Shown: piece by piece, positions 4,615 through 25,645 of the stretch
Layout of the letters: every line of letters begins with the position of its first letter
How positions within the stretch are numbered: position 1 is the stretch's first letter
Notes under the pieces: generated by a model
What the model was told of the DNA's origin: nothing
Database searches by the model: none
What the model saw: the letters and a program-made list of their open reading frames with translations, nothing else
Position numbers and translations under genes: made by a program
DNA from: a virus
Length of the DNA stretch: 64,000 nt
Virus record (IMG/VR): IMGVR_UViG_3300043411_000704
Location: 16,257 to 80,256 of that record
Direction: 5' to 3' (one strand)

Positions 4615-5456
4615 ACTAAATTTCTATCCATTCGCATATAATCAAAGAAATCGCGTTCTTTCTCTTTTTCCTTATCTGCTAAATTTTGAAACGTATTTTT
4701 TGGCATCCGATTAATCAAATTTGTTTTGAAATTATAATCCATTAGATTAAACATCATTTTATTCAATGGTCTGCTGTCAGCAATTTCTAAGTTCCATTGA
4801 CGCTCTGGACAGTCTTCTAATACACTATTTGATTCATGTTCAATATGAAAAATTGATGGTGGATAATCGTTACCAATCGGAAAATTTCCACCAAAAGCCT
4901 TTGCATAACCCGCAATCACAATATCCCATACGGCTTTACCTAAAACAAATTTTTGGGCCAAATGTTGATGGTTTGCTAGTGCAAATAACCGGTTGAAACA
5001 AAACAAATCAAATCCTGCACAATAGAAGTCTAGAGGTTCTATTTGACGGTCAACAATACTCTGATATCCATTCACCGGTTGCCTTATATCAAATCGACTA
5101 CAAACAAAGGCTTGTGGTTTCTTTTCTAGGATAGTATCGACACATATTTTGTTAATTATCACATCGTTGTTTATCACAATAAAATGATCGCCATCTAATT
5201 GCAGACCATATTCATATAATTCGGAAAAGAAAGGTAGTTTTTTACTCGCACCTTTAATCACCGCAGTTGAATCACTTAAAACAAAAACAGGTTCCAATGA
5301 CGGATATGGATTTATGAAATCTGATTTTTCATCTTCAAATTGTAGATTATGAATACGAATCTTATCGGGGAATAATTTTTGCATGTGAAGCCATGACTGG
5401 ACTGCCACATCCTGACGTGGATTTGATTTATATGTGTTTACTATAATGTCAATCAT
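4611..5456 (-). CDS. Putative GT-A glycosyltransferase, paralog of 3754-4614
   Basis: VINNDVII; RQDVAVQSW, KKLP, SRFDI and AGFDL motifs. Confidence 0.6.
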   Translation of the reverse strand: MIDIIVNTYKSNPRQDVAVQSWLHMQKLFPDKIRIHNLQFEDEKSDFINPYPSLEPVFVLSDSTAVIKGASKKLPFFSELYEYGLQLDGDHFIVINNDVIINKICVDTILEKKPQAFVCSRFDIRQPVNGYQSIVDRQIEPLDFYCAGFDLFCFNRLFALANHQHLAQKFVLGKAVWDIVIAGYAKAFGGNFPIGNDYPPSIFHIEHESNSVLEDCPERQWNLEIADSRPLNKMMFNLMDYNFKTNLINRMPKNTFQNLADKEKEKERDFFDYMRMDRNLV

Positions 5457-16563: not shown

Positions 16564-17367
16564 TCAAATTTTTCCTAAATATTTTTTAATCAGTTTTTTA
16601 TTGTTTGTTGTAAAATCCGGTGTCATATCAACATAATTTATCTTTTTATTATTTTTATGTAATAAAATGAAAGGACTATGACTGACCATGATCACCTGGA
16701 AGTATTTGGCAAGTTCGTCCAGAGTATCAAACAATTCAAGTTGTTTTTCAAGTGAAAGTGCTTTTTCTGGTTCATCCAATAGGACAGTCATAGGTCCAGT
16801 TCGTGGTAAACTATTGATATAATTAACTTCAAATTGGGCGATTGCTCGTTCTTCGGGCGATATAATATTTTCAGGCACGTTGGTCAAACTTGGGGGGTTT
16901 TGTAACATTTGCATGATCTTATTAATCTTAGTTATCCTATACTGTCCTGAACTAGGTTTGGACGCCATTACATCCATTTGTTCGGCTTCTGTAGAAATAC
17001 CGTCTGATGATTGATCAGGGTTTATAAACCATGTCATATCATTCTTCCCCATTTGGTCTGAATCGTTGTAAAAAGTTGGTGTGCCGTCCCATTCAATGAC
17101 CGCATGAGATTTACCCGGTGCATATACATGATAGCAAAACGGATAGTGTGACTGATATTGGGACCCAATTTTTGACGGTTCAGAAATTCGGGAAAATCCA
17201 CCTTTATCAATACCACAATATGCGGCCAGTGTTTTTAATAAAGATGTTTTGTTTGTTCCATTCCCACCAACAATCACATTCAATCCTGGTTTGAACTCAA
17301 ATATTCGATCTTTAATGTTGGGATTATTCATCATAAATCCCGATTTAATCATTGCTCGTTTAATCAT
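16564..17367 (-). CDS. ABC-type (AAA_21/SMC-like) ATPase
   Basis: GLNVIVGGNGTNKT Walker A, SSGQ signature, LLDEPE Walker B, VSHS H-loop; start trimmed to MIKRA. Confidence 0.85.
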   Translation of the reverse strand: MIKRAMIKSGFMMNNPNIKDRIFEFKPGLNVIVGGNGTNKTSLLKTLAAYCGIDKGGFSRISEPSKIGSQYQSHYPFCYHVYAPGKSHAVIEWDGTPTFYNDSDQMGKNDMTWFINPDQSSDGISTEAEQMDVMASKPSSGQYRITKINKIMQMLQNPPSLTNVPENIISPEERAIAQFEVNYINSLPRTGPMTVLLDEPEKALSLEKQLELFDTLDELAKYFQVIMVSHSPFILLHKNNKKINYVDMTPDFTTNNKKLIKKYLGKI

Positions 17368-18802
17368 TTTTAGGTAGATCCTTACCAATTTTTCGCCAGT
17401 CAACGAATGCATTTTTATATAAATCGGACAATTTTACTTCTTTTTCGTCAAATTGGAAGTTGGTAATACTAAAATTTGGACGATTGTTCTTAATCGGGGT
17501 AGGATTATATAGTTTCAACAGACTTTGTGGATTCGCTATGAATTGAGATTTAATCGTTTCTGCTAATTCTTTATTATCTACAGTTCCTACAATTATAGTA
17601 TCTGCTTTGCCAAAAAGCCTAGCACTAATAGTCCATTTACCATTCACTTCTTCAAGTTTAATATCAAACTTATATGCAAATGTTGGATCGACTTCAAGTA
17701 ACTTTTTATAGTTACTTTTAAATGTCGATCTCAGTCTACCAATGTCTAAATAACGACTAAAATCAACTACATCAACTTCAGGTGTCGGACATTCGTCTAA
17801 TATTTTGGTATTGGCATCAATGATATATGCACACTCCAATTCAAATTCCCAATCAGCATGATCTCTATTAATTGCCAAAATCTTATCTGATCCTGGACAA
17901 GTTAGATATAACATTTTAGATTCGTCCATGATATTTTCTGCTATAATAGTGGTCGTCAAATGTGACAACTTTCCGAACCGTGATCCAATAAAACTATATA
18001 ATTGATCTACTGTTGTGAATTCCATGTCCGAACCTACGTGATAGGTTCCTGATAGATTTAACAAGTCAATCTCATATGCTGCATTGAATCGCAGATCTGT
18101 TAGATTTTTAAATATTTCCTTCAGTTGTTTGAAATCCAGAGCGATAACATCTTTCTTGTTATCTGTTGGTTGAATAACGTAAAAACCCTGTTTCACATCG
18201 TAAAATTGTATAAACGGAACTACATATTTCTTCAAATATTCTTCTTTTTCCTGTGCAATCTTTTTAGTATTTTCCGCATCAAGTTCAGCCTTCTTTATAA
18301 GAAAGTGTTTTTCTTGCTCATATGCTTCTTGTTCTCTACGAGAATATTCAGATAATGCATTTCCACATGCTTTGATTGAATCAGATAAAACCAACTTTTC
18401 AACCAAAAATTCACTCTGTGGTATAACTTTAATATTAATTGGTATTACTGGATTAATTTTGTCATAACCTGATTTTTTTGATGGCATAATTCCACCTAAT
18501 TGTAATGAAGATTGATTTCCTAGTCTAGTTCTAAAGTAATCATTTGTCGATTCAACTACTTCACTGATTTCTTTGTTAATTTCTTGGACTACTGTATTTC
18601 TAGTATCCAGCCAAGCACTATATTCAGTTTTTAATTCTTCACTCAATTTTGTTGGTTTATTGATGAATTCATGTAAAAATTCCTTATATGTTCGTTCTCT
18701 GACATCAACATATTCTACTGTCGGGGTCTTTGATGATGATTCAAAATGTGCTAATAATTTCGTAACACCATTACTATCGGTTAATTCTATTGTTTTTTCC
18801 AT
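17360..18802 (-). CDS. Hypothetical protein (480 aa)
   Basis: Long ORF; TAAATA 7 nt upstream of the ATG. Confidence 0.8.
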   Translation of the reverse strand: MEKTIELTDSNGVTKLLAHFESSSKTPTVEYVDVRERTYKEFLHEFINKPTKLSEELKTEYSAWLDTRNTVVQEINKEISEVVESTNDYFRTRLGNQSSLQLGGIMPSKKSGYDKINPVIPINIKVIPQSEFLVEKLVLSDSIKACGNALSEYSRREQEAYEQEKHFLIKKAELDAENTKKIAQEKEEYLKKYVVPFIQFYDVKQGFYVIQPTDNKKDVIALDFKQLKEIFKNLTDLRFNAAYEIDLLNLSGTYHVGSDMEFTTVDQLYSFIGSRFGKLSHLTTTIIAENIMDESKMLYLTCPGSDKILAINRDHADWEFELECAYIIDANTKILDECPTPEVDVVDFSRYLDIGRLRSTFKSNYKKLLEVDPTFAYKFDIKLEEVNGKWTISARLFGKADTIIVGTVDNKELAETIKSQFIANPQSLLKLYNPTPIKNNRPNFSITNFQFDEKEVKLSDLYKNAFVDWRKIGKDLPKND

Positions 18803-18828: not shown

Positions 18829-19434
18829 TTACATTAATTCTTTTGCTTGCTCAAACTCAGATTCATCAACTCCTTCCATACTGAAGTTTAATTTACTCAT
18901 TACATCATCCATTTCAAAAATACCGGTTGATACAGGTCGGTCAATTCGTGCCTGCCAATTATGCCATTGAAAATAACTAATTCGGTTATCAAATTCTGTC
19001 ATGTCACCAACAGGTCGCTCTTTAATAAACGTAAAATTAGATTCAACTATTTTTACATATTCAGCCGCATTATCTTGATCCATATTAATCACAACCAAAA
19101 AATGTTGGTCGTCGTGACCAACATCAAATGTTCTAAAATTTAATTGTGGTTTAGTATCTGGCACTTTTAACTGCGGAACTTCTTGATCCGCAATTTTATA
19201 ACTTTGTCCAAACCCCGGTTCTGAGATTTCAGCATTGACCTGTGATACTGAGTTCTTATATTCTTCCAGACCTTTAGATATATATTCTGCCGCATTTAAT
19301 GCCATTTCGGTATCACCTTTTACTGGACTGTTCAACACTACGGTATGTTTCCATAGTTCCATATCTGGGACATCAGACAATCCGATCTCCATTTTCAATT
19401 TCTGTTTAATAGTTTCTTCGTCAAACTTGATCAT
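18829..19434 (-). CDS. Hypothetical protein
   Basis: 201-aa acidic ORF. Confidence 0.75.
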   Translation of the reverse strand: MIKFDEETIKQKLKMEIGLSDVPDMELWKHTVVLNSPVKGDTEMALNAAEYISKGLEEYKNSVSQVNAEISEPGFGQSYKIADQEVPQLKVPDTKPQLNFRTFDVGHDDQHFLVVINMDQDNAAEYVKIVESNFTFIKERPVGDMTEFDNRISYFQWHNWQARIDRPVSTGIFEMDDVMSKLNFSMEGVDESEFEQAKELM

Positions 19435-19450
19435 GTTCTATATTAAACCA

Positions 19451-19488
19451 TAAAAAAACCGATTTCAACTAATTAGTTGAAATCGGTT
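19451..19488 (-). terminator. Rho-independent terminator (perfect 32-bp palindrome)
   Basis: aaccgatttcaactaattagttgaaatcggtt at 19457-19488 ends in a T-run on the minus strand. Confidence 0.85.
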
Positions 19489-19493
19489 CAAGT

Positions 19494-19702
19494 TTCCTAT
19501 TCAAAGAGTTATGTAGACAAAATCTAAAACAAAATCAAAGACGCCATTTTTCTCAAAGACCTAATCAAAATCAAAGACTGGTAATCAATAAATTCCGAAA
19601 AATGGCCGATAGTTGTTAGTGGATTACCACCATTTTATTTCATTCCAAGAAAGCGCTCTATCCAGAGCAAGGTTTTGTATTTTTATGTTCTTTGAATAGG
19701 AA
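19494..19702 (-). ncRNA. Candidate structured non-coding RNA (closed by a 14-bp stem, with a pseudoknot)
   Basis: Perfect complements 19494-19507/19689-19702, 19543-19552/19597-19606 and 19579-19586/19622-19629 (the last two interleaved); hairpin 19655-19668; no ORF in the track. Confidence 0.7.
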
Positions 19703-19752
19703 TAAAGAAAAACTGGTTAGCCAAATTAACCAACCGAATTTTTCACCTTAAA

Positions 19753-20709
19753 TTATTTACCTAGATTATCAATTTCCTGATAAATGTCTGCCAGTGCATT
19801 AGGAATCACAATTTTATATGCCGAGACTTCTCTAATCTTCTCCAGACGACGAGTTTGAAGAACTGAATTCAGGGATTCTAATTCATTCTGATATTTCTGG
19901 AATCGCATATTATATTCTCGCGAAATAGTATCAAACTCATTACTAGCTTTAACGGATGCTAGGGTAAATTCCCTTTGTAGTTCTGCATTCTTTTCAGTTA
20001 CCCGATTCTGAATACGTGCCTTATATGAATTCAACTTAGATTCATATTCCCGATGTTTGGCTTGAAGATCAAAATATTCCTTATTAATTCGATCTTGGTC
20101 GAAATTAGACTTTGCAAACATCGGAATCTCTGTTTGCTGTCCATTTTGAAGAATCTTATGGAATCCCACGACTGGCCCACCAGCAAGATCATTCTTGATG
20201 TTAGACATCACACCACCCGTATGGATATACTTCCCTATATGGGAAGCCTGTGCCTCTAGCGCATAATATTCGGCTCTTTCTGCAATGGAAAGTTCACCAA
20301 CCGCATCGGTTTCAGTCCATGCCTTGACACCAAGAGGTTTATTAAACACTGGTGCGGTCTCTGTGAATTCTGGAATCTTTTCCTCATCAGTAAGAAATTC
20401 AGATGCATCGCATGTTCGATAAAACTCTAGTAATGTTGTCTTTGCCTTAATTGCTTCTTTAAGCCATGCAGACAGTGCAAAATATCGTCCTTCCTTTGTC
20501 CAATCATCAACCTCAACTTGAGTCGAGGTCGTAACCCAATGGGGCTTGCCATCAAGGACCACATTATAGTTAAATGCTCTTGCACCAGAAAGGCGTTTAC
20601 TAATGATCGTGTTTTGTTCCTTCAACAAATTACTAATATGATTAGCATGTGAAGATGAAATTCCTTCTTTTGCGAAGAAAACTAGATTGTGTTTTTGGTT
20701 TGTTTTCAT
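19753..20709 (-). CDS. Coiled-coil hypothetical protein co-transcribed with the ncRNA candidate
   Basis: 318 aa, largely helical (GISSSHANHISNLLKE...LSAWLKEAIKAK...YKIVIPNAL); has its own sigma70 promoter. Confidence 0.85.
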   Translation of the reverse strand: MKTNQKHNLVFFAKEGISSSHANHISNLLKEQNTIISKRLSGARAFNYNVVLDGKPHWVTTSTQVEVDDWTKEGRYFALSAWLKEAIKAKTTLLEFYRTCDASEFLTDEEKIPEFTETAPVFNKPLGVKAWTETDAVGELSIAERAEYYALEAQASHIGKYIHTGGVMSNIKNDLAGGPVVGFHKILQNGQQTEIPMFAKSNFDQDRINKEYFDLQAKHREYESKLNSYKARIQNRVTEKNAELQREFTLASVKASNEFDTISREYNMRFQKYQNELESLNSVLQTRRLEKIREVSAYKIVIPNALADIYQEIDNLGK

Positions 20710-20718
20710 AAGTTATTG

Positions 20719-20747
20719 ATTATAGTCTATGTGTTTTAGTGTGTCAA
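20719..20747 (-). promoter_or_regulatory. Consensus sigma70-type (early) promoter
   Basis: TTGACA-N17-TATAAT, 9 nt before the ATG at 20709. Confidence 0.9.
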
Positions 20748-20754
20748 GTTAAAT

Positions 20755-20961
20755 TTAGATGAATATTGATCCTTCTTGTCCTGGTTCATTACTATTGGTG
20801 CAATTCAACGTGTGGTCCGATGCTTTTGGGCATCTTTTATTTCCGCATAAAGGACATATAACCATCCACCAAACATACTGGTCCCGTTCACCCACATTAG
20901 GATAATTTAATGCATTACACCTGTGGCAATCACACCAATGATATTTTTGTTCGGTCTTCAT
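20755..20961 (-). CDS. Small Cys-rich (zinc-finger) protein
   Basis: CDCHRC and CPLCGNKRCPKASDH motifs. Confidence 0.75.
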   Translation of the reverse strand: MKTEQKYHWCDCHRCNALNYPNVGERDQYVWWMVICPLCGNKRCPKASDHTLNCTNSNEPGQEGSIFI

Positions 20962-20962
20962 T

Positions 20963-22297
20963 TCACATTATATATAGCATTTCTCGTGGTCTTGTGCAAG
21001 AGGTATAAAAAATACGTTTTTGTTCATCAATATTCTGATTTAATCTGATGTCTGTATAGACAACAAAACAATTGGTGTAGGTGCTCCCTTGGGCTCGATG
21101 CCCAGTGATTGAATAATTGAATCCCACGTCTGAGAAATTATCTTGGAAGCCGAAATATTTACCCCATTTTTGACCTCTACGAACCGCTTCTTTTTCACTT
21201 TTTGCATCGTCCGCCAGTTTTTTCAATACCTGTTGGTATATTTTTTGAGACTTTTCATGTAAAATATGAATATTATGTGCCTCTTCTTCGGATTCAACTG
21301 CTGCATCATAATAATGAAACTGATGCCCGTATAATTCTTTCTGGCTAACGGTTAATCCTAATACTTCAAGGTCTTCATTTGTATTATATAATATTTCATC
21401 TGGTGAATCTCCTTTGATCGGTCGATTCACCACCAGTTTTTCACCGATCACAATTTTGGGTGCATTCATACCGTATTTCATACCCCGTATAAGTTGGTTA
21501 AAATTATCAACCACCACATTTCTCCAACTAATGACCTTACAATGATCTGCATTGTTATCAAATTCGGTTGAACAGAAATAATGTTTTAACAACGTGTTAA
21601 TAACCTCTGGTTGATTTTTATTCAAAATCGCAACACCTTGGTGATCAATCACATTTTTTTGTCCAATATTAAACTGAAATTCATTTTTTAAAATTTGTTG
21701 AGAAGTCTCAATAATAGGATTACCCTTTGCCTGTCTAACAATTTCAGTCAATTCATATTGTTTAATCCCATATTTTTCTCTCTGATCCTCCAACATAGGA
21801 ATCGAATGTTCGTGATTAACCGGATTAATCTGATTTTTATCACCAATGAATATAATTTTCACACCCCGATAATTCTGATCTTCCATCTCATGGAACAATT
21901 CGTCTGCCAACATAGAAGACTCGTCTACAAAGATAATATCATATAGTGCAAATTTTGATGGACTACTTTTATCTCTTTCATACACTTCTTTACCGTTGTT
22001 AGTGATCTTATGTTTTAGACCTAGTAATGAATGAACTGTTGTGAACTTGACCCGTGCCTGATCTTCTGGAGAAAACATCTGTTTAATCACACGCAGGGCT
22101 TTATTTGTGGGGGAAATCACTGCAATATTATTATGAGCCGCCTCATTGATAATTTTACTAACTAATTGAGTAGTTAGTAACGATTTACCGCTACCAGCAG
22201 GTCCATTTAATAGTGCCTTATGGTAGTCTTGATCACCCTGGACAAATTTCCAAAGGTTATCAAATATCGGTTGTTGATGTTCTGTTAGTTTTATCAT
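20963..22297 (-). CDS. dda: SF1B DNA helicase, Dda-like
   Basis: LTEHQ, GPAGSGKS, SPTNKA, TVHSLL, VDESSM, GDKNQI, IVRQ, TGHRAQGST and YTSCTR motifs. Confidence 0.9.
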   Translation of the reverse strand: MIKLTEHQQPIFDNLWKFVQGDQDYHKALLNGPAGSGKSLLTTQLVSKIINEAAHNNIAVISPTNKALRVIKQMFSPEDQARVKFTTVHSLLGLKHKITNNGKEVYERDKSSPSKFALYDIIFVDESSMLADELFHEMEDQNYRGVKIIFIGDKNQINPVNHEHSIPMLEDQREKYGIKQYELTEIVRQAKGNPIIETSQQILKNEFQFNIGQKNVIDHQGVAILNKNQPEVINTLLKHYFCSTEFDNNADHCKVISWRNVVVDNFNQLIRGMKYGMNAPKIVIGEKLVVNRPIKGDSPDEILYNTNEDLEVLGLTVSQKELYGHQFHYYDAAVESEEEAHNIHILHEKSQKIYQQVLKKLADDAKSEKEAVRRGQKWGKYFGFQDNFSDVGFNYSITGHRAQGSTYTNCFVVYTDIRLNQNIDEQKRIFYTSCTRPREMLYIM

Positions 22298-22302
22298 GTC
22301 GT

Positions 22303-22599
22303 TCACCAAGAAATTGTGGTGTAAGTTAATCCGTTGATAGTATGTGTTGTTATATAACAAACTATTCTCAATTTAATATATTTTTTAATATAATTAAATT
22401 CATCTATTGAGAAATCACACTCGACCGCTTTCAGCTTTTCAAGATACCATCTACCATCGGATAGGGCATCATATTCCATACTATTAGTAATCAGTTGAAT
22501 ACTGCATTCATTATTAATTGAAATTCTCTTTATCATTCGGATAATAGTGTTTGCATAATCTTGCAATTCTATTATTTGATCAGCCTTTAAACGTTTCAT
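22303..22599 (-). CDS. Hypothetical protein
   Basis: ORF in the operon. Confidence 0.6.
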   Translation of the reverse strand: MKRLKADQIIELQDYANTIIRMIKRISINNECSIQLITNSMEYDALSDGRWYLEKLKAVECDFSIDEFNYIKKYIKLRIVCYITTHTINGLTYTTISW

Positions 22600-25185: not shown

Positions 25186-25295
25186 TATCTAAATTTAACC
25201 CAATCTAAACAACAAATCAAGCAAAATCTTCAAATTCAGCATCAAAAACACGCTTTTTCAGCTTAATATTTAGTAAAAGATTGTAAATATATAAT

Positions 25296-25500
25296 TGTTA
25301 TCAGGTGGTTATGAGGAAGAGAGAATAGGAATTCCCTTCCTGGCGAAACTCTTTGAGTTTTTATAGACAAGAAGTTATCCTACTCTCTTCCAAATGTAAC
25401 CTGATAAATCAGTATGGCCCCATCGGAATCCAGTCTAAGTTTTGATGGGTAAATTTGGAAATCCCCTTGACCAGTCGAGCGGTTGATCCCCTTCCGTATC
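25296..25500 (+). ncRNA. Candidate late-expressed structured ncRNA
   Basis: TAAATA at 25284-25289; nested stems 25298-25306/25399-25407, 25315-25323/25383-25391 and 25326-25330/25378-25382; hairpin 25419-25449 with G-U pairs on the plus strand. Confidence 0.55.
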
Positions 25501-25630
25501 AACACTAAATTTATATGTAAACTAATGGTGATCCATTTTATTGGACGAAGTATTAGTTAAGTTCTATTTAAACAGATTCGAAATACGATTGCAAGTTTTT
25601 TCTTCATCCATTGTAAACTTTTTTTCTCTG

Positions 25631-25638
25631 TATAAATA
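25631..25638 (+). promoter_or_regulatory. T4-type late promoter TATAAATA
   Basis: Exact T4 late consensus 7 nt before the ATG at 25646. Confidence 0.85.
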
Positions 25639-25645
25639 AATTTCG

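What the first reader, a model, noticed from the sequence alone, without database searches (positions are those of the whole stretch)
19451..20747. Self-contained protein + pseudoknotted ncRNA cassette (candidate undescribed ribonucleoprotein system)
Seen: a perfect TTGACA-N17-TATAAT promoter drives one 318-aa coiled-coil gene, but the terminator lies about 265 nt past the stop codon, in a genome where genes normally abut. The gap is highly structured. A perfect 14-bp stem (ttcctattcaaaga 19494-19507 / tctttgaataggaa 19689-19702) closes a domain containing a hairpin (19655-19668) and two interleaved helices of 10 bp (19543-19552/19597-19606) and 8 bp (19579-19586/19622-19629), which form a pseudoknot. 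The remaining strands carry an exact 13-nt repeat (GUCUUUGAUUUUG on the RNA; 19530-19542 and 19566-19578) plus degenerate copies. Inference: this is an early-expressed protein-RNA pair. The RNA could be a scaffold, decoy, antitoxin or guide, and the U-rich repeats could be binding sites for the protein. It matches no RNA class I recognise.
Basis: partly seen in the sequence, partly recalled or inferred. Interest (0 to 1): 0.92.

Follow-up and report, generated by a model that had tools for sequence, protein, structure and literature searches.

The report
New phage protein–structured RNA gene pair
A previously undescribed folded RNA of about 210 nt always sits directly behind the gene for an unknown helical protein, in hundreds of phages and some gut Bacteroidales, so this looks like a new protein–RNA module linked to RNA repair or phage–host conflict, with its function still untested.

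Summary
The sequence features are real, and they extend far beyond this window. The ~265-nt gap after the 318-aa gene encodes a structured RNA. It has a hairpin at the stop codon (P0), a 14-bp closing stem (P1), a 10-bp helix (b) and two single-stranded arrays of hexamer repeats (G-n-Y-n-U-n).

The protein family has 1,127 cluster representatives and no Pfam, PHROG, NCBIfam, PADLOC or PDB match. It occurs in hundreds of phage contigs and sporadically in Bacteroidales chromosomes. Nearly all copies carry the same RNA core directly downstream on the same strand. Only one weak profile or covariance-model hit lies elsewhere.

P1 and b covary strongly (97-98% paired, almost every pair with compensatory changes). 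G·U outnumbers A·C 6.7:1, so this is an RNA made from the sense strand. No Rfam family matches. The claimed pseudoknot is not beyond chance and is not conserved.

In some Bacteroidales the pair lies between a divergent WYL regulator and the RNA ligase RtcB. In phages it lies among tRNA and tmRNA genes. About a tenth of the RNAs contain tRNA-like T-arms.

Best reading: a new protein–RNA module organised like Ro60–Y RNA, acting in RNA repair, surveillance or phage–host conflict. Binding and function are inferred, not shown.

The parts
20719..20747 (-). Promoter: TTGACA (20747-20742), 17-nt spacer, TATAAT (20724-20719). The -10 box ends 9 nt before the ATG, so the mRNA has a very short leader or none.
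   Evidence: Conserved in L084, L086 and L087.
19753..20709 (-). Gene for the 318-aa helical protein. It belongs to a new family of 1,127 cluster representatives, all about 290-340 aa, with no fused forms found.
   Evidence: ORF. No Pfam, PHROG, NCBIfam or PADLOC match. AlphaFold model has pLDDT 90.5 and a single 90-residue helix at 205-296. Fold searches found no specific match. Family size; no longer fused forms.
19707..19744 (-). P0: a long hairpin starting 9 nt after the stop codon. In this window it looks like a terminator. It is conserved as a structure across the family.
   Evidence: Compensatory changes in the inner P0 helix of another clade.
19689..19702 (-). P1 5' strand of the closing stem (UUCCUAUUCAAAGA).
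   Evidence: Compensatory changes appear in L084, L086 and L087. P1 is 12-21 bp with unrelated sequences across the family. All 18 of 18 pairs covary in alignment A9.
19654..19669 (-). Hairpin UGCUCUGGAUAGAGCG, which resembles a tRNA D-arm. It lies in the variable 5' domain.
   Evidence: A hairpin stands at the same place in L086 and L087 with a different sequence.
19622..19629 (-). UGGUAAUC, the 5' strand of the proposed pseudoknot helix. It can alternatively form a small local hairpin.
   Evidence: Not beyond chance and not conserved.
19597..19606 (-). Helix b 5' strand (GCCAUUUUUC), preceded by the conserved UAUCG.
19553..19578 (-). Array 1: hexamer repeats inside the loop of helix b (GUCUUUG AUUUUG AUUAG GUCUUUGA). 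The proposed pseudoknot partner GAUUACCA lies just upstream at 19579-19586.
19543..19552 (-). Helix b 3' strand (GAAAAAUGGC).
   Evidence: 96.2% of cells paired and 10 of 10 pairs with compensatory changes.
19513..19542 (-). Array 2: single-stranded run of four to five hexamers (GUCUUU GAUUUU GUUUUA GAUUUU GUCUAC) between helix b and P1. The family logo is G-n-Y-n-U-n.
   Evidence: (logo from 97 non-redundant elements).
19494..19507 (-). P1 3' strand (UCUUUGAAUAGGAA).
19449..19489 (-). Intrinsic terminator with a 15-bp stem and a U7 run. It ends the transcription unit. A weak promoter-like site for the next gene overlaps it.

Best explanation
The cassette is one member of a large, previously undescribed two-part module: a roughly 300-aa helical protein and its own non-coding RNA.

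How it is made. Both parts come from one transcript, driven here by a strong sigma-70-type promoter. The RNA is the 3' part of that transcript. It folds into:
- P0, a hairpin at the stop codon;
- P1, a long closing stem that probably serves as a processing or stabilising stalk;
- a variable 5' domain, which in some lineages is tRNA-like;
- helix b.

Helix b presents two single-stranded arrays of hexamers (G-n-Y-n-U-n), with 2-3 units before its 3' strand and 4-5 after.

Proposed mechanism. I propose that the arrays are periodic binding sites for several copies of one protein, most probably the co-encoded protein. The resulting ribonucleoprotein would act on other RNAs, in tRNA or RNA repair, surveillance or protection, in the manner of Ro60-Y RNA particles. 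Phages would use it during infection. Some Bacteroidales keep it as an inducible accessory island with a WYL regulator and the RNA ligase RtcB.

Shown: the RNA structure, the strand, and the strict protein-RNA linkage and distribution.
Inferred: co-transcription, processing at P1, protein binding to the arrays, and the RNA-repair or conflict role.
For: Linkage:
- A sequence profile of the 3' core hit 118 of 161 homolog loci at E<0.01. Every hit lay on the gene's strand, 96-756 nt past its stop, with none elsewhere in 1.3 Mb.
- Most of the loci without a hit carry variant hexamers when read by eye.
- 62 of 80 loci from bacterial genomes carry the core likewise, with no hit elsewhere in those loci.
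- Reciprocal test: covariance model R2 was run over 151 genomes of the family of G002, a Muribaculaceae isolate. It gave 6 hits, 5 of them 120-150 nt downstream of the protein gene. Only 12 of those genomes have that gene.
- No other gene is consistently nearby.

Structure:
- Helix b is 96.2% paired, with 10 of 10 pairs showing compensatory changes. Covariation score is 1.22, against 0.23 in shuffles and 0.14-0.17 when the pairing is slid.
- On a plain MAFFT alignment, RNAalifold recovers P0, P1 and b. There, 97.7% of cells are paired, 31 of 32 pairs are compensatory, and 0 of 500 shuffles reach the observed values.
- P1 is present with unrelated sequences across clades.

RNA rather than DNA:
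- With G·U and A·C allowed equally, helix b has 155 G·U and 23 A·C. Shuffles give a ratio of 2.1.
- Canonical T-arm hairpins occur in 9 of 97 elements and in 0 controls.

Periodic sites:
- In the logo G carries 1.4-2.0 bits every 6 nt, position 2 is almost never a purine, and position 4 is U.

Context:
- tRNA genes lie directly downstream in 34 loci.
- A tmRNA and many tRNAs lie next to the pair in L005 and L108.
- A divergent WYL regulator lies directly upstream in 16 loci. RtcB is adjacent in 5 loci, with a weak partial match in a sixth, in two different gene orders.
- The promoter is conserved in the window's clade.
Against: - No experiment or expression data could be obtained.
- The protein is near-neutral overall, with pI about 6. 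Only residues 1-105 and the long helix are basic.
- The protein has no recognisable RNA-binding fold.
- The exact heptamer GUCUUUG equals the published optimum for the host cold-shock protein CspB (PMC1904285).
- RtcB and WYL adjacency is seen in only a minority of loci.
- The module's sporadic distribution fits a toxin-antitoxin or defence system equally well.
Confidence: 0.4

Rival explanations
1. The RNA is a tether or sponge for a host protein, in the manner of a Y RNA. Its single-stranded hexamer arrays would bind host OB-fold proteins such as cold-shock proteins, or the S1/KH/CSD domains of PNPase or RNase R. The co-encoded protein would bind elsewhere, for example at P1 or P0, or would act separately.
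For: - The window has three exact GUCUUUG heptamers, at 19578-19572, 19560-19554 and 19542-19536.
- This heptamer is the consensus high-affinity site of B. subtilis CspB, 5'-GTCTTTG/T-3' (PMC1904285).
- From knowledge of Chen et al. 2013 Cell, and as summarised in the abstract of PMC4201824: in Deinococcus the Y RNA tethers Ro60 to PNPase.
- The co-encoded protein is not basic overall.
Against: - The family logo conserves alternate positions (G1, Y3, U5). This overlaps only partly with CspB's preferences (T2, C3, T4, T6).
- Hexamer flavour drifts between clades, from GUCUUU to GUUCUU to GUCUAA. That fits co-evolution with a fast-evolving partner better than binding to a universal host protein.
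- The strict linkage with the protein gene is left unexplained.
Confidence: 0.2
2. The module is a toxin-antitoxin or abortive-infection pair resembling type III systems. The protein would be toxic, or an effector, and the adjacent repeat-bearing RNA would neutralise it until infection or stress disturbs the balance.
For: - It is a self-contained protein plus RNA pair with no other conserved partner.
- Its accessory distribution is sporadic: 12 of 151 genomes of the family of G002, a Muribaculaceae isolate, one copy each.
- It occurs in both phages and chromosomes, in variable contexts. These include type I restriction-modification S subunits, IS elements and WYL regulators of the kind found beside defence systems.
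- The RNA carries short repeats.
Against: - The gene order is reversed compared with ToxIN: here the RNA follows the protein.
- The repeats are 6 nt long, not about 36 nt, and lie inside one closed fold rather than forming a tandem array of units.
- There is no similarity to ToxN/AbiQ or to any PADLOC model.
- One chromosomal copy has its protein gene split by an IS. That says nothing either way about toxicity.
- Neither toxicity nor defence was tested.
Confidence: 0.15
3. The structure is only a cis-acting 3' UTR of the protein's mRNA. It would act as a stabiliser or autoregulatory element, or as a translation-coupled switch, since P0 begins at the stop codon. It would have no function of its own in trans.
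For: - P0 starts 9 nt after the stop codon in the window and right at the stop codon in other clades.
- No separate promoter for the RNA was found.
- The RNA never occurs convincingly without the gene.
Against: - About 210-390 nt of conserved architecture, with tRNA-like inserts, a 12-21-bp closing stalk and sequence-conserved single strands, is far more than mRNA stabilisers need.
- tRNA genes often follow directly in the same orientation, as in stable-RNA operons.
Confidence: 0.1
4. The element works as DNA: a replication origin or protein-binding site with iterons and a cruciform, placed next to the helicase gene.
For: - Direct repeats and inverted repeats lie in an AT-rich gap within a replication-gene neighbourhood. 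A Dda-like helicase is encoded at 20963-22360.
Against: - Strand-asymmetric wobble pairs: 155 G·U against 23 A·C, with a chance ratio of 2.1.
- The orientation relative to the protein gene is fixed in every locus.
- T-arm modules are present.
- A 6-bp repeat spacing does not put sites on one face of duplex DNA.
- The element also occurs in chromosomal islands without replication genes.
Confidence: 0.02
5. The hexamer arrays are coding. A tiny ORF with alternating GNY and NUN codons would give an alternating small-or-acidic and hydrophobic peptide, for example VFDFVLDFVY, possibly read as a tmRNA-like tag.
For: - A six-base period is a multiple of three.
- In the G-first frame the window, L084 and L002 give similar peptides.
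- tRNA-like modules and a nearby tmRNA gene in some phages recall trans-translation.
Against: - The third base of the GNY codon is almost never a purine (0-3 of 97). Coding does not require that.
- Conserved positions alternate with period 2, not 3.
- There is no conserved start codon.
- An in-frame UAG interrupts array 1 in the window.
- Sequences after GUCUAC are not conserved as peptide.
- ARAGORN and Rfam find no tmRNA in the window, in eight further relatives scanned with Rfam, or, with ARAGORN, across all fetched phage and metagenome loci.
Confidence: 0.03

Closest known systems
Ro60 (Rsr)-Y RNA particles of bacteria and phages (YrlA type), often encoded with RtcB
   Same: - The RNA gene lies next to the gene of its partner protein.
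- The distribution is sporadic, in bacteria and in phages.
- The RNA is closed by a long stem formed by its two ends.
- Some members have a tRNA-like module. L002 has the YrlA order of T-arm, acceptor-like hairpin and D-arm (PMC4201824).
- RtcB is encoded alongside in some genomes.
   Different: - The protein has no TROVE/Ro60 or vWA domain and is a 300-aa helical protein of unknown fold.
- No Rfam Y-RNA or YrlA match.
- The conserved core here is helix b plus the hexamer arrays, which Y RNAs lack.
- tRNA-like modules are optional, present in about 10% of elements.
Type III toxin-antitoxin systems (ToxIN, CptIN, TenpIN)
   Same: - A protein plus a repeat-bearing RNA form a self-contained, mobile pair found in phages, plasmids and chromosomes.
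- A hairpin lies between the two parts.
   Different: - The RNA lies downstream of the protein gene, not upstream.
- The repeats are 6 nt long inside one closed fold, not tandem units of about 36 nt.
- The protein is unrelated to ToxN/AbiQ.
RNAs with periodic protein-binding sites: TRAP-binding leader (GAG/UAG triplets every 5-6 nt) and the TMV origin of assembly (G every third base)
   Same: A strictly periodic conserved base (G every 6 nt) in a single-stranded stretch. In those systems this reflects one site per subunit of an oligomeric protein. This comparison is from my own knowledge and was not tested here.
   Different: - The period and motif differ (G-n-Y-n-U-n).
- The arrays are split by a helix.
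- The partner protein is unknown and unrelated.
Cold-shock protein (CspB) binding sites
   Same: GUCUUUG, present three times in the window, equals the CspB consensus 5'-GTCTTTG/T-3' (PMC1904285).
   Different: - The family-wide logo conserves positions 1, 3 and 5, not 2, 3, 4 and 6.
- Other clades use GUUCUU or GUCUAA.
Large phage-associated ncRNAs near tRNA genes (GOLLD, ROOL)
   Same: They are structured RNAs of unknown function, carried by phages and often found beside tRNA genes. This comparison is from my own knowledge.
   Different: - No Rfam match to either.
- This RNA is much smaller, at 210-390 nt.
- It is always coupled to one protein gene.

Membership tests
Any Rfam 15 family | Covariance-model match at the family's gathering score | tested here: not met
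   No match in the window at gathering thresholds. Only chance-level hits in 19300-19900 at E up to 10. In 17 related loci only tRNA, one tmRNA and one sub-threshold group I intron hit were found, none covering the core.
Bacterial Y RNA (YrlA) / Ro60 RNP | Encoded next to a Ro60 (TROVE-domain) protein | tested here: not met
   The adjacent protein has no Pfam domain at E<0.01, and structure searches show no HEAT-ring or vWA fold. The neighbours of the window cassette also lack TROVE.
Bacterial Y RNA (YrlA) / Ro60 RNP | tRNA-like domain in the order T-arm, acceptor-like stem-loop, D-arm | tested here: inconclusive
   Present in L002 (Rfam tRNA 36.6 bits). T-arms occur in 9 of 97 elements. The window copy has only a D-arm-like hairpin.
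Type III toxin-antitoxin | Tandem array of roughly 34-40-nt antitoxin repeats upstream of the toxin gene | tested here: not met
   The repeats are hexamers, the only longer repeat has two copies 36 nt apart, and the RNA lies downstream of the gene.
Type III toxin-antitoxin | Toxin of the ToxN/AbiQ endoribonuclease fold | tested here: inconclusive
   No PADLOC, Pfam or PDB match and no fold match. A missing match does not exclude a divergent fold.
Type III toxin-antitoxin | Protein toxic when expressed without the RNA | not testable with these tools
   This needs expression assays.
tmRNA | Acceptor/T-arm tRNA-like domain ending in CCA, plus a tag reading frame recognised by ARAGORN or Rfam RF00023 | tested here: not met
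   ARAGORN and Rfam find none in the window or its close relatives. A separate, genuine tmRNA lies upstream of the pair in L005.
Iteron-type replication origin | Function on duplex DNA, with no strand-specific RNA pairing rules | tested here: not met
   G·U to A·C is 155:23 against a chance ratio of 2.1. Orientation relative to the gene is fixed in all loci.
Intrinsic terminator (for P0, 19744-19707) | G+C-rich hairpin followed by a U-run, conserved as such in relatives | tested here: inconclusive
   The scanner calls it terminator-like in the window. The hairpin is conserved, but most clades lack the U-run. Read-through cannot be measured here.
H-type pseudoknot inside the element | Second helix (19622-19629 with 19579-19586) supported beyond chance and by covariation | tested here: not met
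   8% of shuffles reach the window's score. Only L087 shows an independent 6-bp equivalent. The family median z is 0.13.

The most novel reading that the evidence does not exclude
This is a new class of ribonucleoprotein. Several copies of a helical protein would line up on an RNA with a strict six-nucleotide register, one subunit per G-n-Y-n-U-n unit. The RNA's variable, sometimes tRNA-like, domain would recruit damaged or targeted RNAs for RtcB-type repair, or shield them from host nucleases. Phages would carry it to keep translation running during infection, and Bacteroidales would keep it as a WYL-controlled stress island.
Probability: 0.25. Interest if true: 0.92.

Novelty: categorically new. 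Interest (0 to 1): 0.86.

Why it matters
- Very few protein-RNA partnerships are known in bacteria and their viruses. Each one found so far (tmRNA-SmpB, Ro-Y RNA, CRISPR, retrons, type III TA, OMEGA systems) opened a field or yielded a tool.
- This module has over a thousand protein clusters, a well-defined RNA architecture with an unusual six-base code, and a presence in gut phages and Bacteroidales.
- It recurs next to tRNA and tmRNA genes and the RNA ligase RtcB.
- It is absent from Rfam, Pfam, PHROGs, NCBIfam and PADLOC.
- The pair is small (about 1.2 kb) and has its own promoter and terminator, so it can be cloned and tested directly.

Tried and rejected
Tools that failed or were closed:
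The closest relatives, P0003 to P0005 and P0007, could therefore not be fetched.
No expression data were obtained, and read laying was not used.

Searches that gave nothing:
- DNA search of the phage collection gave no match. Protein search there gave only two distant records.
- Fold searches of the whole protein and of residues 1-204 gave only generic helix matches. This covered Foldseek against PDB and BFVD and VIA-align wide.
- A PDB sequence profile search gave only coiled-coil noise.
- The ESM Atlas gave no usable hit.
- No longer or fused homologs were found.
- The homodimer prediction returned no verdict: score 0.50 with one control at 0.33.

Ideas considered and dropped:
- The pseudoknot, rejected after the shuffle test.
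- A small ORF in the arrays.
- A DNA origin.
- A hammerhead-like or box C/D-like reading of the 'GACUGA...GAAAC' loop in P0. The conserved bases do not fit, and Rfam is silent.
- GGAGG ahead of array 1 as a Shine-Dalgarno sequence. It is absent from the window's clade, and no conserved start codon follows it.

Technical notes:
- Iterating the nhmmer profile drifted towards the largest clade and lost others, so I used the union of the iterations.
- One weak covariance-model hit without the protein gene (G016) looks spurious.
Full report
**What is in the window.** All genes around the finding run on the minus strand.
- A perfect TTGACA-N17-TATAAT promoter lies at 20747-20719. It is the only perfect match in the 64 kb, although 14% of shuffles have at least one.
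- It precedes a 318-aa ORF at 19753-20709. The -10 box ends 9 nt before the ATG, so the mRNA has almost no leader.
- The same promoter (TTGACA-N16/17-TATAAT or TATAGT) stands before the homologous gene in L084, L086 and L087.
- Downstream there is a 318-nt gap before the next ORF (18829-19434).
The scanner finds the strong terminator at 19489-19456.
- As RNA of the sense strand the gap folds at -88.6 kcal/mol, against -58.6 ± 5.1 for shuffles (z = -5.8).
- Two corrections are needed. A long hairpin (P0, 19744-19707) starts 9 nt after the stop codon, and the scanner calls it terminator-like. The 13-nt repeats belong to a run of hexamers with G every sixth base.

**The genome.** The window is part of an 80-kb IMG/VR virus record that CheckV rates 31% complete, so it is a fragment of a large phage. 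Its neighbours are a Dda-like helicase, an SMC/SbcC-like ATPase and an Hsp20. No tRNA and no Rfam family is found in the window.

**The protein.**
- It has no Pfam, PHROG, NCBIfam or PADLOC match.
- AlphaFold gives a confident model (pLDDT 90.5). An N-terminal helical domain carries two beta-hairpins, followed by a single 90-residue helix at 205-296.
- Fold and sequence searches against the PDB and BFVD return only generic helical matches and one uncharacterised phage protein. The same holds for the N-terminal 204 residues alone.
- The family is large. It has 1,127 cluster representatives at E ≤ 0.001, all about 290-340 aa, and no fused forms were found.
- It is near-neutral, with pI about 6. 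Only residues 1-105 and the long helix are basic.

**The RNA travels with the protein.** I fetched 80 loci from IMG/VR, 80 from metagenomes and 80 from GTDB genomes.
- Downstream of the closest relatives available (77%, 57% and 40% protein identity) the element is alignable. Changes are compensatory in the closing stem and in the 10-bp helix.
- Relatives at 25-34% identity show the same plan with unrelated helix sequences.
- A sequence profile of the 3' core hit 118 of 161 loci at E<0.01. All hits lay on the gene's strand, 96-756 nt past its stop, with none anywhere else in about 1.3 Mb.
- Most of the remaining loci carry variant hexamers such as GUCUAA.
- A descriptor combining the helix and the array found the signature in 155 of 162 loci. 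A few of those helix assignments were wrong on inspection.
- In the genome loci, 62 of 80 have the core, again only downstream on the sense strand.
- Reciprocally, covariance model R2 was run over 151 genomes of the family of G002, a Muribaculaceae isolate. It gave six hits, five of them 120-150 nt downstream of the protein gene. Only 12 of those genomes possess that gene. The sixth hit is weak and looks spurious.
- No other gene is consistently linked to the pair.

**Structure and strand.**
- On the covariance-model alignment of 32 diverse elements, helix b is 96.2% paired and all ten pairs show compensatory changes. The covariation score is 1.22, against 0.23 in shuffles and 0.14-0.17 for slid registers. 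That alignment is fitted to the model.
- On an independent plain MAFFT alignment of 14 full-length elements from another clade, RNAalifold finds the inner P0 helix, an 18-bp P1 and a 9-bp helix b. There, 97.7% of cells are paired, 31 of 32 pairs are compensatory, and 0 of 500 shuffles reach the observed values.
- P1 is 12-21 bp in most loci. Its sequences are unrelated between clades, and its 3' arm begins about 32 nt after the first G of array 2.
- The best helix at the b position has a median of 11 bp, against 7 in shuffles.
- When G·U and A·C are allowed equally, helix b contains 155 G·U and 23 A·C. Shuffles give a ratio of 2.1. This points to an RNA transcribed from the gene's strand, not to a DNA cruciform.
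- The proposed pseudoknot does not hold up. 8% of shuffles match it in the window, L084 weakens it, and the family shows nothing.

**The hexamer arrays.**
- In 97 non-redundant elements, the stretch after helix b reads G-n-Y-n-U-n four to five times. G is present in 86-97 of 97, position 2 is a purine in at most 3 of 97, and position 4 is U in 83-96 of 97. The odd positions are nearly free.
- Two or three more units lie in the loop just before the 3' strand of helix b.
- Alternate-base conservation and the ban on purines at position 2 argue against codons. The window also has an in-frame UAG in array 1.
- A conserved base at a fixed period in a single strand is what oligomeric RNA-binding proteins leave behind. 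TRAP and the TMV origin of assembly are examples, cited from my own knowledge.
- The exact heptamer GUCUUUG occurs three times in the window. It is the published optimum for B. subtilis CspB (PMC1904285). The family logo only partly fits CspB's preferences, so this is a lead and not a result.

**Variable parts.**
- Nine of 97 elements contain canonical T-arm hairpins, against none in the controls.
- L002 carries a T-arm, an acceptor-like hairpin and a D-arm in the order described for YrlA Y RNAs (PMC4201824).
- L089 and L092 carry an acceptor/T-arm minihelix inside the loop of helix b.
- The window copy has only a D-arm-like hairpin.

**Context.**
- In phages the pair often sits in stable-RNA clusters. 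tRNA genes follow directly in 34 loci. L108 has about 20 tRNAs upstream. L005 has a genuine tmRNA (59 bits, gathering score 47) just upstream.
- In bacteria the family is almost confined to Bacteroidales, mainly Muribaculaceae, Porphyromonadaceae, Prevotellaceae and Bacteroides, plus one Flavobacteriales bin.
- There it is present in 12 of 151 genomes of one family, one copy each. Its neighbours are ordinary chromosomal genes that differ from genome to genome.
- Recurrent neighbours are a divergent HTH-WYL-WCX regulator directly upstream in 16 loci, and RtcB. RtcB lies directly after the RNA in L119, L123, L126 and L239, and before the protein gene in L222, with a weak partial match in L131.
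- One copy is split by an IS3 insertion.

**Interpretation.**
- What is shown: a new, widespread structured RNA on the sense strand, strictly coupled to a new protein family, forming a compact mobile module.
- What I infer: the two are made from one transcript; P1 is a processing or stabilising stalk; the arrays bind several copies of a protein, most likely the co-encoded one; and the particle works in RNA repair, surveillance or protection. That role would be comparable in organisation to Ro60-Y RNA-RtcB operons.
- Rivals that remain open: a tether for a host OB-fold protein, a type III-like toxin-antitoxin or defence pair, and a purely cis-acting 3' UTR.
- Rivals that are disfavoured: a DNA origin and a tiny ORF.

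**Limits.** I obtained no expression data and no access to the closest relatives' contigs. The dimer prediction gave no verdict. The earlier scan note e1-6024161 is a second reading of this same stretch and reaches the same description.

Noticed in passing
L005:2912-3296 (with tRNAs at 2264-2335, 2495-2567 and 4894-4962): A phage contig of about 97 kb carries a genuine tmRNA gene (Rfam RF00023, 59 bits, gathering score 47) and several tRNAs immediately around the protein/RNA pair.
   Followed up: partly
L108:1-3024 and 5139-5223: About 20 tRNA genes are packed upstream of the pair in one phage contig.
   Followed up: no
L003-L023, about 255-330 nt past the protein stop (e.g. L005:4894-4962): Directly after the RNA, ARAGORN calls an odd tRNA with an unassignable anticodon ('tRNA-??? 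tt'). Rfam scores it as tRNA at only 36 bits.
   Followed up: no
L065:1196-1393: A group I intron-like match scores 44.8 bits, just under the gathering score of 50, upstream of the protein gene.
   Followed up: no
window 20707-20747: The cassette mRNA is leaderless or nearly so, because the -10 box ends 9 nt before the ATG. The same short spacing is seen in L084 and L086.
   Followed up: partly
window 20755-20961 (-): A 68-aa cysteine-rich ORF with several CxxC-type pairs lies between the Dda-like helicase gene and the cassette promoter. It matches no family.
   Followed up: no
window 16564-18802 (-): A 480-aa ORF without matches overlaps a 282-aa ORF that carries the N- and C-terminal ATPase motifs of SMC/SbcC-type proteins. 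This may be a split or unusual Rad50/SbcC-like gene.
   Followed up: no
L228 (G001:C1:2195938-2198480): In a complete Muribaculaceae chromosome the protein gene is interrupted by an IS3-family transposase. The N-terminal 52 residues lie 1.6 kb upstream of the rest.
   Followed up: partly
A9 columns 50-58 and 291-297; e.g. L007:4901-5156: In the Bacteroidales-phage clade, 'UUGAAUA' just before P1 and 'UAACUU' just after it are nearly invariant. P0 carries a conserved 'GACUGA...GAAAC' internal loop. The meaning of these motifs is unknown.
   Followed up: no
L093, L116, L122, L167, L216, L239 (loop of helix b): A conserved 'CUUGAUUGUCCGGAGG'-like motif precedes array 1 in the GC-richer clades. 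The window's clade lacks the GGAGG part.
   Followed up: no
window 25186-25645: Gene orientation flips here and the cumulative GC skew reaches its minimum. This divergent intergenic region is a more likely place for an origin or for divergent early promoters than the finding itself.
   Followed up: no
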